Part shown: positions 35,988 to 44,900 of the stretch, piece after piece
Layout: every line of letters begins with the position of its first letter
How positions within the stretch are numbered: the first letter of the stretch is position 1
Source: Escherichia coli
Lineage (GTDB): Bacteria > Pseudomonadota > Gammaproteobacteria > Enterobacterales > Enterobacteriaceae
Length of the DNA stretch: 64,000 nt
Reading direction: 5' to 3' (one strand)
NCBI RefSeq assembly: GCF_048403405.1
Contig: NZ_CP183129.1
Made by a program: the position numbers

Positions 35988-38900
35988 TGATAATCCTCCC
36001 GCCAGAAGAATAAAACATAGCCCGGTATACAAGTGTATACCGGGCTTTTTTGATCAAAATTCCATTTTCACCGTGAATTGCACTTCACGCGGATCGCCAA
36101 TCTGATTCCCCAGATTATTTGTGGCGATGGAAGAGGTGTAATACGTTTTATCAAACAGGTTTTTGACGTTTAATTGCAGTGTGACCGGATACTGCAATTT
36201 CATTTTGTATGCGGCGAAGGCATCGGCAACGAAATAGCCTGGCAGATAATAGTCAGCCCCATTGGTTGCCGAACGACGGCTTACGCCATGTCCACCACCG
36301 CCAAACGTCAGTGTGTTATTGCCTGGCATGTTATGAATGTCATAGGTCAGGAATAGCGAACCGGTATGACGAGGAACATTCGGCAATGGTTTCCCTGCAT
36401 AATCAGGATCTTCCAGAACCTTAGCATCGGTATAGCCGTAGCTGGCAATGATATTAATGTTTTCAGTTAATGCTCCCGCAAGGTCGACTTCTACCCCTCT
36501 TGAACGAACGCGGCCTGCCGTTTTGGCGATGGTTTCATCACCAATACTTTCGGTATACAACACGTTACGTTTATGGATATCAAACAGCGCAATATCTGCG
36601 GTGATACCATCGAACAGCTCGAATTTTGCCCCGACTTCGTAAGCATTAGATGATTCCGGTGGAAGATCTCCGATGTAGCTGGCAATTGACGATTGCGGCA
36701 TAAATGTTTGCGAATAATTAGCAAATAAGGATACCGATGGCGTCAGTTTGTAGACTAACCCCAGTTTGGGCGTCCATTGTTCATCGCGGCTGTCAGTATT
36801 GACATTAAAAGGACGGCCTTTACCCGCATACTGCGTGTAATACTGATAGCGGATCCCGGCGACGGCAATCCAGTTATCGGTCAGATAGAGCGCGTCCTGT
36901 GCATAAGCTGAGTAGCTCTCCTGTTTGATCGTCTGATCGCTGTCCGACGCCGAGACAGTTGTGCATTTGCTGGTATTGCCGTAAACAGGGTTGTAGATAT
37001 TGAAATCTTTAGCGTTTTTACAGCGAATCATATCTGTGCGCAGAAGATCATAATATTCATATGACACCCCACCCAGAATCTCATTATAGAACCCAGCAAT
37101 ATCAACATTCCCTTGCAGATCCGCACGAGTAGCATGCATACGCTGGGTAGATCCCTGAGTTGCATCAACACGCCGTGTCAGCGTTCCTGTCGTTGCATCA
37201 TACGCGGTAACACGAGCCTGATTATCGCCGTATTTATCCTGGCTGTAGCTGTAATCAAAGCGCGCTGTCCACTGGCTATTGAGATGATATTCTGCGTTGA
37301 GTTGCGCCAGATCGGACTGACCATCTGTAATATTAAACGGTTCGTCAAAACGTATTTTTCGATCAACGTTTACGGGCTGTTTCGTCGTAAGGTCGAAAAT
37401 CGTTCCACGATCGAACGGAGTTTTATAGTCCCGATGGGAATAGAGCATGGTTACTGTTGCATTATCACCAAACCAGGTGAGTGACGGGGCAATAAATGTA
37501 CTGCGCTCTTTACCGAAGTTTCGCCAGTAATCTTCATCCTGCACTTCCCCCGTCAGGCGGTATGCCAGCTGAGTGCCTTCAATGGGACCTGTGATATCAA
37601 GTTGCCCAGTGCCTCCGCCAAAACTGGAGGACGTGGCTGAGACAGAACCATGGAATGTTTTTTCCGGGCGCTTGGTCACGACGTTAATCAATCCACCAGG
37701 ATCGAGAATGCCATACAGCGTGGAGGCCGGACCTTTTAGCACTTCCACACGTTCTGTGGCGGCGTTGAAACTGCGAGGAAGTACAGTTCGCAGGCCGTTG
37801 GTCATGATGGAGCCATCCCGGTTAGCACCAAACCCACGACGTACAAAGGCGTCCTGAGTTCCGCCTAATGTATTGGTCTGTACCACGTTACTGACGTTAT
37901 AAAGCGCTTCATCCAGCGTCGTTGCATTCTGATTTTCCAGAACCTGATCGCTAACCGTATTGACCACCTGCGGGATATCCAGCATCGGCATATCGGTTAA
38001 TGTCGCCATGGAGGTGCTCAGAGGTTGATAACCATCGGTCGCCTCAGTTGCGGTATTTGCATCCGCTGTAACAGTGATTGTTTCGCCATCTTTGGTCGTT
38101 GCAGTGTCGGTTGCATGAATCATTGGTGCTGCAAAGAGCAGTGAAAAGAGCGCCCGACCTTTGATTCCTGAGAATGAAGGTGTGAACTTAGCCATTTAGT
38201 CTGTTATCCCAAAAACTCACGGATTGTCGTGAGTGAAAATTGTTTCTTGTTGCTCACTAAGCACTATCCGTTTGTTATTTCACCATCGGATATGTAATTG
38301 AGAATCATTCAACCATGCGGTGATGTAGTAGTAAATGAGAAATAACAAAAAATTGCTACATGTGTTTTTATGAGAGGTTAATGCAATTCAATTGATGGTA
38401 ATTTATTAATATTTAATGGTTTTATTTTTATCTTTAAAAATATTTCACCTGTTATTTACCTTGTTTTTGTATGGATTTTAACTTCTTGACTACTACATTT
38501 TGTGGCGTCAAACTCTCAAAGGAGAATGAGTTTTATTTTTGTTTGTCTTTGATTAAGTTGGCGTACACGTGGCACATAACGCAAAAGGGCAGGGGCTGAT
38601 CCTCGACAATGTTTCTGCCGGGTATCACAAGAAAATCATTGTTGATGGTGTTTCTTTCTCCGTTCCCACAGAAAAAATGACCGTTCTGGTTGGGGCAAAC
38701 GGCTGTGGAAAGTCGACGTTGCTCAGCACCATTGCACGTATCTTGCAACCTATGGGCGGCTCGATATTGCTGGATGGTAAAGCGATTCACGAGCAACCAA
38801 CGAAAGCGTTATCCCGTAGACTTGGGATCTTGCCGCAGTCGCCATTATTGCCGGAGGGCTTAACCGTTTATGAACTGGTGTCGCGTGGGCGTTTTCCCTG

Positions 38901-41900: not shown

Positions 41901-44900
41901 CGCCGCTATCAGGCACAAATCAATGCGCTGAAGGCGACGCTGGACAGCCAAAAAATAACGGTATCGGTGATTCAGGCAAATCAGGGAAAAATTAATGTGA
42001 TGCATAGCTATCATTCGCTGGGGCGGGTATTACGCGATGCTGGTTTTCGCTTTCCGCCGCTGATTGAGAGCATTCCTGAAGGTGGGCGAATGGATGTGAG
42101 CGCAGAGCGTTTACCTGAACTGGATGCCGATTTTGTTTTTGCAACCTGGCGCGGTGACACCGGTGGTAAACCTCAGGATGAGCTGGCAGCAATGGAAAAA
42201 GTCATGCCGGGATGGTGTCAGTTTCTGACGGCCTGTCGTTCCGGGCGCTATGTGCTGATTTCTCGTGAAGAGGCGATTTCTAACTCCTTTGCATCTCTGG
42301 GGCTGATGGCTGCGCAGATACAATCACAAATTGCGGGACGACCTCTACCGGAGGCTAAATGATCCAGAAAGACAAAACGCGGGTTGATATTTATGGTGAG
42401 CGTTTTCGCACTCGCGCGAGTCAGTTAACGCCTGGGTTAAGAACTGTCGCAAGCTACATTAATGAGCATCGTGAAGTGGTACTCGAGCAAACGGCGATGG
42501 AAATTGCGGCCACGTTGAACACTTCCGATGCCACAGTTATCAGGGCTATACAGGCTCTGGGGTTTGCCGGGCTGCGTGATCTGAAACGCACACTGGAACA
42601 GTGGCTTGGTCCAGCCCTTAGTTCCAGCGAAAAGATGTCTACGACGGTGAGTAACTTGACGAGCGATGTTAACACCGCAATCGACTTTGTTCTTGAAGGG
42701 CATTTGTATACTTGTAATGTCCTGTCAGAGCCTGAAAACCGCCACGCGCTTGCGCAAGCTGTAGCGTTGTTGGTGCAGGCACGGCAAGTCGCTATTTTTG
42801 GCATTGGCGCTTCGGGTATCCTGGCGGACTATACCGCACGACTATTCAACCGCATAGGTTTGCCTGCCACGGCACTAAACCGTACGGGTATTGGCCTTGC
42901 CGAGCAACTGATCGCGCTTCAACGTGGCGATGTTCTGATCATGATGGCGCAAAAATCTGCGCACCGGGAAGGGCTGACAACGCTTCGTGAGGCGAGGCGG
43001 CTGGGGATCCCTGTTATTTTGCTGACAAACGCGCTGGATTCACGTTTTAGCAAAGACGCCAGTATCGTGATTCATGTTCCGCGCGGGGATGAAAGGGGGA
43101 AAACGCCACTACATGGTACGGTATTGTTGTGCCTGGAAATGATTGTTTGGTCGGTGGCTTCCGCGATGCCGCAGCGTGCGGTTAAAACCATTAAGCGAAT
43201 TAACGATTTCCATCGGGGTTTGAAAACGGGAAGAAAGAATGGCTAATCTGACCTGAGGCCGGTAGCAACACCGGCCTCTTTTCAGGAATGTTAAATCCCC
43301 GGTTGCAGAATACGGATATTCATCTCCAGCACGTCGCCTTTTACGGCTTCGCTGTACGCCTTCATGTGCGGGGTTTGCAGATGCGCTTCAAGATGCGCGA
43401 TGCTTTCCCACTGCTCAATCATCACGATAGAATCCGGTGCCATAGACTGGAAACTCACGCCAGCAGCGCAATCCACCATTGGCGTATAGCCGTGGCAACC
43501 TTCTTCTTTCAGTACGGTTGGAACGATTTTAGCAAACTGATCCAATACTGCCTGACGGTGATGTTGACCAGGACGAGTACGGATTTCTGCGATTACGGTA
43601 AGCATGGTTAACTCCTTCTAAAGCCTGAGCTCTAGTTAACCAAAAATTTCCACAAGATGCTTGCGATATTCTTCAGTATAGCGGGGAACATCAGGCATTT
43701 TTATCACGTCATTAGCGATAAATGTCGGCAGCGGTTCCATGCCAAGGAATTGGTTTGCTTTATGGAACGGCAGATACACACCGTCAACGCCAACGCCGTG
43801 GAAGAACTGATCTTTTTCGGTGAAGGCTTCCATTGGTGCGTTCCAGGTCAGAGAAAGCATATATTTTTTGCCCTGTACCAGGCCGCCGGAACCGTATTTT
43901 TTCGACGGATCTTTGCGGGTACGACCATCGCTGGCATACAGCGTCCCGTGACCTTCGGTGAATACATCATCAATGTATTTTTTCACTGTCCACGGCGCGC
44001 CCATCCACCAGCCTGGCATCTGCCAGATCACCACATCAGCCCAGAGAAAGTTTTGTACTTCCGCTTTGACATCGTAGTCGCTGTCGGCGCGAACGATGCG
44101 GACATCATGCCCGAGGTCGCGCAACGTGCCATCCGCGACTTCGGTCAGGGTGTCGTTCAGTTGACCATTGGAGTGGGCGAATTTTTTCGCGCCGTTGATA
44201 ATCAGGATGTTGCTCATTTTTTAACCTCAAGGTGAGACGTTTGTCGACTATAGTACGTCACAGAGCGGTACGGTGAAATTAGCAAAATGTGCAAAGTCTT
44301 TTGCTAATTTAGCAAAAGTCTGATCTTGCTCTGATTCACCGATGCGGGATAAATATTTTCTGAAAATGACAATACTGAAATCAACTTCCTATAAGTTCCC
44401 ACAGGAGAGATGTATTATGTAAATGATAAAGTAGTTTTTCGGAAAAAATAATCATGGAGAATATATATGTCAAATATCATATACTTATCAATTAAAGGAA
44501 AAACACAAGGTTTGATCTCTGAGGGCTGTGGTTCGTATGCATCTATTGGTAATAAATATCAAATAAATCATGTGGATGAAATTTTTGTTTTACAGTTCGA
44601 CCATTCTTTAAGTCGAGAATATAATGTAGTGCATCATCCCATAAAATTTTACAAGCCAATAGATAAATCCTCTCCTTTATTAAATGCTGCTCTTTCTGAA
44701 AATGAAGAGTTATCAGCTGTATTTAATTTTTATAGAATTAATTCTGGCGGTTGTATTGAAAGGTTTTACACAATTGAATTGCAAGGGGCATATTTATCGA
44801 ATATTCTGACTTGTTATCCACACTCAATTACACATGCGGGTAATCAACCGGAAGAGGTCATTGTTCTTAATTATAAAAATATAACATGGAAGCACCATAT

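What the first reader, a model, noticed from the sequence alone, without database searches (positions are those of the whole stretch)
36054..43282. Accessory TonB-dependent receptor and ABC importer island between parE and ygiN
As I recall, parE is followed closely by ygiN in K-12. Here about 7.2 kb lies between them: a TonB-dependent receptor with a clear TonB box on the minus strand, divergent from an operon of ATPase, two FecCD-type permeases, a periplasmic binding protein and a regulator. Each junction in the operon is a 4-bp ATGA overlap or a short gap, indicating translational coupling. Both island boundaries coincide with bidirectional terminator hairpins, and no integrase or transposase is present. 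The layout resembles the accessory iron-uptake locus described as fit in some E. coli, but that is from memory.
Basis: partly seen in the sequence, partly recalled or inferred. Interest (0 to 1): 0.6.

Follow-up and report, generated by a model that had tools for sequence, protein, structure and literature searches.

The report
The known E. coli fit iron-uptake locus
The 7.2 kb between parE and ygiN is the already published E. coli "fit" iron-siderophore uptake system, intact and ordinary; the only additions here are a likely binding site for its repressor FitR and signs that the locus is old and was lost in K-12-like strains.

Summary
Window 36054-43246 carries six intact genes: a TonB-dependent receptor on the minus strand, divergent from ATPase, two FecCD permeases, a binding protein and an RpiR/SIS regulator. 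K-12 MG1655 has only a 47-bp parE-ygiN spacer.

All 17 published fit primers (PMC2593036) map to the expected genes at 0-3 mismatches. The binding protein matches PDB 3BE5/3BE6 at E 2e-195. This is fitA / fitBCDE-fitR, known since 2006 and repressed by Fur and FitR, with its substrate still unknown. Novelty: already known.

Two refinements:
- The locus shows no sign of being a mobile island. It has no integrase, IS, tRNA or flanking repeats, and its GC content is ordinary. Its nucleotide divergence tracks the flanking core genes, and it sits at the same site in other Escherichia species. It is present in 1870 of 5426 complete E. coli genomes. Ancestral presence with loss in K-12-like lineages fits better than insertion.
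- A 13-mer, TT(G/T)ACTACTACAT, overlaps the -35 of both divergent promoters. It is conserved next to FitR homologues in about 65 loci from more than 12 genera, including Xanthobacter, where the Fur boxes are not kept. It is a candidate FitR operator, not tested here.

The right-hand hairpin is stable but lacks a good U-tract, so it is not clearly a bidirectional terminator.

The parts
36019..36052 (.). Hairpin AGCCCGGTATAC-AAGT-GTATACCGGGCT plus T-run, between the parE stop and the fitA stop. Terminator-like on both strands.
   Evidence: Called on both strands. Folding energy -23.8 and -27.7 kcal/mol, z about -5. The fit-negative spacer keeps a shortened, similar hairpin.
36054..38195 (-). fitA: TonB-dependent outer-membrane siderophore receptor, 713 aa. 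It has no N-terminal signalling domain.
   Evidence: ORF. TIGR01783 at 371.9 bits, above the cut-off of 223.5; no equivalog model passes. Best PDB relatives are FoxA, FetA and FhuA, aligned from residue 34 onwards. The fitA qPCR primers map with 0 mismatches at 37375-37451.
38064..38084 (-). TonB box ETITVTA (codons 38-44 of fitA).
   Evidence: Read from the translation. Similar to the FhuA TonB box DTITVTA (established knowledge).
38217..38236 (-). Hairpin in the fitA 5' leader: ACUCACG-acaauc-CGUGAGU followed by UUUU, about 20 nt upstream of the AUG. Possible attenuator or stabiliser.
   Evidence: Sequence. A hairpin occupies the same position with different sequence in 21 sequences from other species and genera, but z-scores are modest (mean -1.2). 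No Rfam match.
38294..38312 (-). Fur-box-like sequence overlapping the -10 (TTGAAT, 38307-38312) of the fitA promoter.
   Evidence: Only 12 of 19 matches to the Fur consensus, which is not significant alone. TTGAATGATTCTCAAT is at least 90% conserved over 66 unique sequences. The paper reports 23-fold derepression of fitA in a fur mutant (PMC2593036).
38323..38335 (-). Candidate FitR operator copy 1: TTTACTACTACAT in the fitA sense, overlapping the -35 of the fitA promoter.
   Evidence: present at this relative position in essentially every FitR locus. It lies inside the EMSA probe that FitR binds (primers map to 38217-38575).
38486..38498 (+). Candidate FitR operator copy 2: TTGACTACTACAT, overlapping the -35 of the fitBCDER promoter (-10 CAAACT at 38509-38514).
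   Evidence: at least 90% conserved over 39 unique sequences. It lies 155-189 bp from copy 1 (255-264 bp in Xanthobacter and one MAG).
38522..38540 (+). Fur-box-like sequence GAGAATGAGTTTTATTTTT just downstream of the fitB -10.
   Evidence: 12-13 of 19 matches to the consensus. 'GAGAATGAG.TTTATTT' recurs in the Enterobacterales loci. fitB is induced by dipyridyl (PMC2593036).
38569..39378 (+). fitB: ABC ATPase.
   Evidence: Best NCBIfam hits are FecE, FepC and FhuC, all below their equivalog cut-offs. fitB primers map with 0 mismatches.
39375..40358 (+). fitC: FecCD-family permease.
   Evidence: fitC primers map with 2 mismatches each. ATGA overlap with fitB.
40355..41404 (+). fitD: FecCD-family permease (RefSeq start at 40367).
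   Evidence: fitD primers map with 0 mismatches.
41415..42362 (+). fitE: periplasmic siderophore-binding protein.
   Evidence: PDB 3BE5/3BE6 at E 2.2e-195 over residues 19-315. Next best are YfiY, FhuD and FepB. fitE primers map with 1 mismatch each.
42359..43246 (+). fitR: MurR/RpiR-family repressor (HTH_6 plus SIS domain).
   Evidence: Pfam HTH_6 residues 14-81 and SIS residues 138-246. fitR primers map with 0 mismatches. Repressor function and promoter binding were shown experimentally in PMC2593036.
43255..43282 (+). Hairpin GAGGCCGGT-agcaac-ACCGGCCTC plus TTTT after fitR. Probable fitR terminator; weak as a terminator for ygiN.
   Evidence: -23.3 kcal/mol, z -5.1. Not called by the terminator scan.

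Best explanation
This is the chromosomal fit locus of E. coli (fitA, divergent from fitB-fitC-fitD-fitE-fitR). It is a TonB-dependent ferric-siderophore import system. FitA takes an iron chelate across the outer membrane using TonB energy. FitE binds it in the periplasm. FitC/FitD with the ATPase FitB move it across the inner membrane. Transcription starts from two back-to-back promoters in the 373-bp AT-rich spacer. Both are repressed by Fur-Fe2+ and, independently, by the locus's own regulator FitR. The gene functions are shown by homology, and the two repressors were shown by published experiments. Three points are inferred here. (1) FitR acts at a 13-bp site, TT(G/T)ACTACTACAT, that overlaps the -35 of each promoter, with the Fur boxes overlapping each -10/+1. 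(2) Repression is relieved when the SIS domain of FitR binds a small ligand, which is unknown. (3) The locus is an old resident of this chromosomal site and was deleted in K-12-like lineages, rather than being a recently inserted mobile island. The transported siderophore is still unidentified. The closest relatives of the receptor and the binding protein are hydroxamate-type transporters, which is only a weak hint.
For: Identity: 17 published fit primers map in the right genes, order and orientation. FitE matches PDB 3BE5/3BE6 at E 2e-195. RefSeq annotation of the same segment in ABU 83972 gives the same six products.

Function: TIGR01783 siderophore receptor above its cut-off; FecE/FecC/FhuB-like ATPase and permeases. 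PDB relatives are FoxA, FetA, FhuA, YfiY and FhuD. HTH_6 plus SIS in FitR. A PepSY_TM gene is inserted into the operon in Erwinia sp. JUb26, and the Pantoea coffeiphila locus has the same fitE-fitR gap; my recollection is that this family includes the siderophore reductase FoxB.

Operator: the motif is found in the receptor-to-operon spacer of nearly all loci whose promoter region was captured. It has two copies in loci with the full operon. It has one copy in 24 loci where the FitR homologue sits beside a different receptor (35-39% identical to FitA). It is kept in Xanthobacter, where the Fur box is not. Both copies lie inside the EMSA probe.

History: there is no integrase, IS, tRNA or flanking direct repeat, and GC is 0.46-0.56. 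Nucleotide identity of the fit genes tracks that of the flanks: 96.8-98.5% against 97.5% versus ABU 83972, and 91-97% against 93.5-94.9% versus two other Escherichia genomes. The locus sits at the same site in E. whittamii and Escherichia sp., and next to parE in Enterobacter chuandaensis.
Against: No substrate is known. Later papers say only that it is not enterobactin (PMC5907654), and one states that no functional data exist for FitA (PMC9409007). No NCBIfam equivalog model passes for any of the six proteins, so substrate class cannot be assigned by orthology. The Fur boxes match the consensus at only 12-13 of 19 positions, a score reached about 140 times in this window by chance; they rest on conservation, position and the published fur-mutant data. 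The operator is a comparative inference only. The motif overlaps the -35, so part of its conservation could be promoter function, and it is not a clear palindrome as expected for a dimeric HTH protein. The ancestral-loss reading lacks a phylogroup-resolved tree and outgroups such as E. albertii and E. fergusonii. Recombination of a fit-bearing segment through its flanks would give the same identities.
Confidence: 0.9

Rival explanations
1. The segment is a horizontally acquired genomic island, inserted between parE and ygiN in some E. coli lineages.
For: Presence/absence polymorphism: 1870 of 5426 genomes carry it. Both edges are clean, at the parE and ygiN stop codons. Homologous operons sit elsewhere in the chromosome in Klebsiella, Kosakonia, Citrobacter and Kluyvera, and FitR-type loci lie on megaplasmids in Pantoea. 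The same spacer holds other cargo in some genomes: IS1 plus an MFS gene in H11, and about 6 kb of extra genes in Enterobacter chuandaensis.
Against: There is no integrase, transposase, tRNA, att-like direct repeat or GC anomaly. Divergence of the fit genes equals that of the flanking core genes in three Escherichia comparisons. The insertion site is the same in other Escherichia species. The fit-negative spacer looks like a shortened copy of the parE terminator hairpin followed directly by ygiN, as a deletion would leave.
Confidence: 0.25
2. The system imports something other than a ferric siderophore, for example another metallophore or a sugar-like nutrient, as the phosphosugar-type SIS regulator might suggest.
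For: The substrate was never identified. FitR belongs to a family that normally senses phosphosugars. The top PDB hit carries the label 'Metal-pseudopaline receptor CntO' alongside 'Ferrioxamine receptor FoxA'.
Against: The receptor passes the siderophore-receptor model. All close solved relatives of FitA and FitE bind ferric siderophores. Both promoters carry conserved Fur-type boxes. Expression is induced by iron chelation and in a fur mutant. A PepSY_TM gene is inserted in the operon in Erwinia sp. JUb26. No sugar-catabolic genes accompany FitR in any locus that was examined gene by gene.
Confidence: 0.06
3. The conserved TTKACTACTACAT motif is not the FitR site. It could be an unusually constrained -35 region, or the site of another factor.
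For: It overlaps the TTGACT/TTTACT -35 hexamer. It is not a clean inverted repeat. No binding experiment has resolved the site (the paper lists this as future work).
Against: Seven further bases beyond the hexamer are invariant across more than 12 genera, while the neighbouring spacer is not. The motif travels with FitR homologues even where the transporter genes and the receptor differ, and in an alphaproteobacterium lacking the Fur box. Outside these spacers the 9-mer core occurs at about the chance rate: roughly 15 other hits in 1.5 Mb, against about 11 expected by simple 4^9 arithmetic.
Confidence: 0.3

Closest known systems
E. coli fit system (fitA, fitBCDE, fitR; Ouyang & Isaacson 2006 and 2008; FitE structures 3BE5/3BE6)
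   Same: Same genes, order, orientation and sequences. Published primers match at 0-3 mismatches and FitE matches the crystallised protein.
   Different: Nothing material; this is an allele of the same locus. The window is 100% identical to strain U1 and 97.2% identical to ABU 83972.
Fhu ferric-hydroxamate system (FhuA, FhuCDB) of E. coli K-12
   Same: TonB-dependent receptor plus a binding-protein-dependent importer with FecCD-type permeases. FhuA is among the best relatives of FitA, and FhuD-type proteins among those of FitE. The TonB boxes are similar.
   Different: All scores fall far below the Fhu equivalog cut-offs (FhuA 226 bits against 803). Fit has two separate permeases rather than the fused FhuB. 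It has its own repressor and divergent promoters.
FoxA/FoxB ferrioxamine uptake (Pseudomonas, Yersinia, Salmonella)
   Same: FoxA is the best solved relative of FitA (E 5e-49). The Erwinia sp. JUb26 version of fit includes a PepSY_TM gene, the family of FoxB (the family link is my recollection).
   Different: FitA lacks the N-terminal signalling domain of P. aeruginosa FoxA: the alignment starts at FitA residue 34 against residue 79-131 of the chain. The FoxA equivalog score is 166 bits against a cut-off of 1300. E. coli fit has no PepSY_TM gene.
Fec ferric-citrate system (FecABCDE with FecIR)
   Same: FecE and FecC are the top NCBIfam hits for FitB and FitC. Fec is also an E. coli iron transporter with a dedicated regulator.
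   Different: Fec is induced by surface signalling through FecA, FecR and FecI. Fit is repressed by a cytoplasmic one-component HTH-SIS protein. FitE hits FecB only weakly (36.5 bits against a cut-off of 320).
MurR/RpiR/HexR family regulators
   Same: FitR has the HTH_6 plus SIS architecture. The nearest solved proteins are MurR/RpiR-family regulators (8K3B, 8JU9, 4IVN).
   Different: Known members control sugar or amino-sugar metabolism. FitR and its homologues sit beside TonB-dependent siderophore receptor genes. No full-text paper in the library combines RpiR, siderophore, TonB-dependent and SIS domain.

Membership tests
E. coli fit iron transport locus | Six genes: fitA divergent from fitB-C-D-E-R (receptor; ATPase, two permeases, binding protein, regulator). 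| tested here: met
   ORFs, matching the gene roles given in PMC2593036.
E. coli fit iron transport locus | Sequence identity with the published locus. | tested here: met
   All 17 fit primers map at 0-3 mismatches in the right gene and orientation; three control primers for other genes do not map. FitE against 3BE5 gives E 2.2e-195.
E. coli fit iron transport locus | Repression by Fur/iron and by FitR, and FitR binding to the fitA-fitB spacer. | not testable with these tools
   Published for strain i484. Here there are only conserved Fur-like boxes and a candidate operator inside the EMSA probe.
TonB-dependent siderophore receptors (TIGR01783) | Full-length match above the curated cut-off, a TonB box and a signal peptide. 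| tested here: met
   371.9 bits against a cut-off of 223.5 over residues 73-713. ETITVTA at residues 38-44.
Named receptor orthologue groups (FhuA, FoxA, FhuE, Fiu, FecA, FauA) | Score at or above the equivalog cut-off. | tested here: not met
   The best equivalog scores are 235 bits against 884, 226 against 803 and 166 against 1300. FitA is not an orthologue of any characterised receptor model.
Siderophore/B12-type ABC importers (FecCD permeases with a cluster-A binding protein) | Two FecCD-family permeases, one ATPase and one binding protein of the FhuD/FepB/YfiY fold class. | tested here: met
   NCBIfam hits for proteins 2-5 and PDB relatives of FitE. All are below the equivalog cut-offs, so the substrate cannot be assigned.
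MurR/RpiR transcription regulators | N-terminal HTH_6 plus a C-terminal SIS domain. | tested here: met
   PF01418 at residues 14-81 (E 3.6e-10) and PF01380 at residues 138-246 (E 2.4e-13).
Mobile genomic island | Integrase or transposase, a tRNA or att site, flanking direct repeats, or deviant composition. | tested here: not met
   None found. Divergence matches the flanks.
Known RNA families (Rfam 15) for the fitA leader | A match at or above the gathering score. | tested here: not met
   Only two chance-level microRNA matches, at E 0.28 and 0.55.

The most novel reading that the evidence does not exclude
FitR and its homologues form an undescribed branch of the RpiR/SIS regulators, dedicated to TonB-dependent siderophore uptake. 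They bind a fixed operator, TT(G/T)ACTACTACAT, at the -35 of the receptor promoter. Their SIS domain senses the imported compound, or a phosphorylated or sugar-like product of it. Finding that ligand would reveal the long-unknown Fit substrate, possibly an atypical, sugar-bearing siderophore. A conserved leader hairpin in fitA mRNA would add a third control layer.
Probability: 0.2. Interest if true: 0.45.

Novelty: already known. Interest (0 to 1): 0.15.

Why it matters
As a finding it adds little. The locus was described in 2006, its regulator in 2008 and the structure of its binding protein soon after, and fitA is already used as a marker of B2/AIEC strains (PMC9409007). What remains open is the substrate and the signal seen by FitR. 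The conserved 13-bp motif found here gives a concrete, cheap test for the FitR binding site, which the original authors listed as future work. The wide link between FitR-type regulators and siderophore receptors in Enterobacterales shows this is a general regulatory arrangement and not a quirk of E. coli. The divergence data also caution against calling every K-12-absent segment an acquired island.

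Tried and rejected
- The original 2006 fit paper (PMC1698097) is not held, so its statements on substrate tests, and on chromosomal position if it reports one, could not be checked.
- One literature query with the bare words 'fit' and 'parE' returned only noise. Further queries found no newer work on the substrate or on FitE binding.
- Matching to the Fur consensus alone does not single out the spacer. 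12-13 of 19 matches is common in this window, so the Fur boxes are not claimed on that basis.
- Rfam found no known RNA family in the locus.
- RNAalifold on a MAFFT alignment of 21 fitA leaders recovered only a 5-bp 5' stem, with some CG/UA covariation. It did not recover the start-proximal hairpin, because the hairpin sequences do not align. Per-sequence folding gave only modest z-scores. The leader hairpin is therefore reported as a passing note only.
- A search for direct or inverted repeats at the segment edges found nothing beyond the two hairpins and chance-level pairs.
- I considered DNA looping between the two operator copies. The spacings (155-189, 255 and 264 bp) are not in a constant helical phase, and 24 loci have only one copy, so looping is not required.
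- The 236-aa protein next to Hcp has no NCBIfam, Pfam or PDB match.

Full report
**What is in the sequence.** Between parE (34098-35990, +) and ygiN (43291-43605, -) the window holds six intact ORFs.
- A 713-aa protein on the minus strand (36054-38195).
- Across a 373-bp AT-rich spacer (GC 0.37), five plus-strand ORFs at 38569-39378, 39375-40358, 40355/40367-41404, 41415-42362 and 42359-43246.
- The junctions are ATGA overlaps at 39375 and 42359, and at 40355 if fitD starts there. Between the fourth and fifth genes there is a 10-nt gap with a GGGAG ribosome-binding site.
- The minus-strand protein has a signal peptide and a TonB box, ETITVTA, at residues 38-44.
- The left edge has a 12-bp GC-rich hairpin that the scan calls terminator-like on both strands (36019-36046; about -24 to -28 kcal/mol).
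- The right edge has an equally stable hairpin (43255-43278). It has only four U on the plus strand and none on the minus strand, and the scan did not call it.
- No integrase, transposase or tRNA lies inside or beside the segment, and no edge repeats were found.

**Is it absent from K-12?** Yes. In MG1655, ygiN and parE are 47 bp apart. A search of 5426 complete E. coli genomes found the whole segment in 1870, in one piece with both flanks in every full-length hit listed. Most of the others have only the flanks. A few genomes carry other cargo at the same spot, for example IS1 plus an MFS gene (H11).

**What it is.** The 2008 paper on its regulator (PMC2593036) describes six genes: fitA (receptor), fitB (ATPase), fitC and fitD (permeases), fitE (binding protein) and fitR. 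It also prints primers for each gene and for the promoter. All 17 fit primers map in the window, in the expected gene, order and orientation, with 0-3 mismatches. Control primers for fepA, gst and polA do not map. The binding protein matches PDB entries 3BE5/3BE6 at E 2.2e-195. RefSeq annotates the same six products in ABU 83972. The locus is the fit system.

**Family placement.**
- FitA passes the TonB-dependent siderophore receptor model (371.9 bits against a cut-off of 223.5). It passes no orthologue-level model.
- Its best solved relatives are FoxA, the enantio-pyochelin receptor and FhuA. The alignment to FoxA starts after FoxA's signalling domain, which FitA lacks.
- FitB, FitC and FitD resemble the Fec, Fep and Fhu ATPases and permeases, all below the equivalog cut-offs.
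- After its own structure, FitE's nearest relatives are YfiY, FhuD-type proteins and FepB.
- FitR has an RpiR-type HTH plus a SIS domain. Its nearest solved proteins are MurR/RpiR regulators.

**How it works.**
- *Shown by others.* Both divergent promoters are repressed by FitR, which binds the spacer DNA in EMSA. [quoted passage not shown]
- *Inferred from homology.* The chelate passes FitA using TonB, is bound by FitE, and is imported by FitCD/FitB.
- *Still unknown.* The substrate has not been identified. A 2018 paper says it is unknown and is not enterobactin. A 2022 paper found no functional data for FitA.

**New detail on regulation.** I fetched 75 loci encoding FitR relatives from one genome per species and mapped the six proteins onto them.
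- The full fitA/fitBCDER arrangement occurs in Escherichia, Enterobacter, Kosakonia, Klebsiella, Citrobacter, Raoultella, Kluyvera, Erwinia, Rosenbergiella, Acerihabitans and a Xanthobacter.
- In many Pantoea, Serratia, Rahnella and some Erwinia genomes, a FitR homologue (64-73% identical) sits divergently beside a different receptor (35-39% identical to FitA). In Pantoea agglomerans, the one locus checked, a ferrichrome/ferrioxamine-type binding protein follows that receptor.
- The spacer alignments show two sharply conserved blocks. Each contains the 9-mer ACTACTACA, in opposite orientation.
- Oriented by transcription, the receptor side reads TTTACTACTACAT, then 17 bp in total to TGnTTGAAT, which is overlapped by TTGAATGATTCTCAAT. 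The operon side reads TTGACTACTACAT, then 17 bp, then CAnnAT, then a Fur-like GAGAATGAG.TTTATTT.
- So each promoter has the 13-mer over its -35 and a Fur-type box over its -10/+1.
- The 13-mer is at least 90% conserved over 66 unique receptor-side and 39 unique operon-side sequences. It is present as a single copy in the 24 variant loci. It is kept in Xanthobacter, where the Fur-type box is not.
- Elsewhere in the 1.5 Mb examined, the 9-mer core occurs at about the chance rate.
- In the window the copies are at 38323-38335 and 38486-38498. Both lie inside the published EMSA probe, whose primers map to 38217-38575.

I take this as the probable FitR operator, at about 0.6-0.7 confidence. It has not been tested. 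It is not a clean palindrome, and part of its conservation may be -35 function. By consensus score alone the Fur boxes are unremarkable (12-13 of 19). They rest on conservation, position and the published fur data.

**Island or old locus?** GC content is ordinary (0.46-0.56) and there are no mobility genes. Nucleotide identity of each fit gene to other Escherichia genomes tracks that of the flanking core genes:
- versus ABU 83972, 96.8-98.5% against 97.5-97.6%;
- versus two non-coli-cluster Escherichia genomes, 91-97% against 93.5-94.9%.

The locus occupies the same site in E. whittamii and Escherichia sp. MOD1-EC7003. It also lies next to parE in Enterobacter chuandaensis, where about 6 kb of unrelated genes separate fitR from ygiN. 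The 47-bp spacer of fit-negative strains aligns with the parE terminator hairpin of fit-positive strains and then runs straight into ygiN. Together this favours long residence at this site with deletion in K-12-like lineages over recent insertion. I could not build the phylogroup-resolved tree that would settle it.

**Other hints on function.** In Erwinia sp. JUb26, a PepSY_TM membrane protein gene and two PstS-like genes are inserted between fitE and fitR. Pantoea coffeiphila has the same 3-kb gap between fitE and fitR, though its genes were not examined. As I recall, PepSY_TM proteins include the siderophore reductase FoxB, which fits a ferric-siderophore route. No sugar-catabolic genes accompany FitR in any locus examined, so the meaning of its SIS domain is open.

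**Verdict.** The system is already known, so interest as a discovery is low. The useful residue is a testable operator for FitR, the breadth of the FitR-receptor pairing, and evidence against the 'acquired island' framing.

Noticed in passing
window 44467-45995: A low-GC (about 32%) islet lies between mdaB and ygiZ. It holds an orphan Hcp/TssD gene (TIGR03344, 199 bits), then a 236-244-aa protein with no Pfam, NCBIfam or PDB match, then ygiZ (DUF2645) 7 nt downstream on the same strand. The whole islet is in 1261 of 5426 E. coli genomes; K-12 keeps only ygiZ. The layout resembles an Hcp-effector-immunity triplet, with ygiZ as a possible orphan immunity gene. That reading is my guess and was not tested.
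   Followed up: partly
window 38196-38300, minus strand (fitA 5' leader): The fitA leader of about 105 nt has two features. A 5' stem (AUAUCCG...CGGAUAG) shows CG-to-UA covariation in 6 of 21 sequences. A hairpin plus U-run (38217-38236) lies about 20 nt before the AUG; its position is kept in other genera but its sequence differs. There is no Rfam match, and folding z-scores are modest. It could be an attenuator or a stabilising element.
   Followed up: partly
A1 columns 65-75 (fitA leaders of other genera; window equivalent about 38245-38255): The motif GGGCAATGA is at least 90% conserved in the fitA leader of Klebsiella, Kluyvera, Citrobacter, Erwinia and Kosakonia, but reads GAGCAACAA in Escherichia. 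It contains a minimal ATG-TGA start-stop after an AGGG. Its meaning is unknown.
   Followed up: no
L017, L025, L028-L033, L037, L039-L041, L043, L045, L048, L051-L054, L056-L062, L069 (about 7400-10900 in most): A second architecture: a FitR homologue (64-73% identical) sits divergently beside a different TonB-dependent receptor (35-39% identical to FitA). In Pantoea agglomerans (L037), the one locus examined gene by gene, a ferrichrome/ferrioxamine-type binding protein follows the receptor. There is no fitBCDE. Most of these loci have one exact copy of the 13-mer at the receptor promoter; L017 and L041 have two, and L052 has no exact match.
   Followed up: partly
L018 6926-9992 (and the equivalent gap in L019): In Erwinia sp. 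JUb26, a PepSY_TM membrane protein gene (Pfam E 1e-54) and two PstS-family-like binding-protein genes are inserted between fitE and fitR. Pantoea coffeiphila (L019) has the same 3-kb gap between fitE and fitR, but its genes were not examined.
   Followed up: partly
L006 10900-16800: In Enterobacter chuandaensis, fit also lies next to parE. About 6 kb separates fitR from ygiN: an AraC-type regulator, a 628-aa and a 417-aa protein with no NCBIfam hit, an MFS-like transporter and a small LysM-like protein (the last two judged by eye). The parE-ygiN spacer seems to be a recurrent site of variable content.
   Followed up: partly
window 38540-38600 compared with L007, L008, L014 and others: Escherichia FitB starts at a GTG (38569) with no obvious ribosome-binding site. 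In other genera the protein begins further upstream with MPQ(R/Q)VE..., so the 5' end of fitB was remodelled in Escherichia.
   Followed up: no
window 17548-17556: A third exact copy of ACTACTACA lies far from the fit locus. About 0.5 such hits are expected by chance in 64 kb (simple 4^9 arithmetic), and it lacks the TTK prefix, so I treated it as chance.
   Followed up: no
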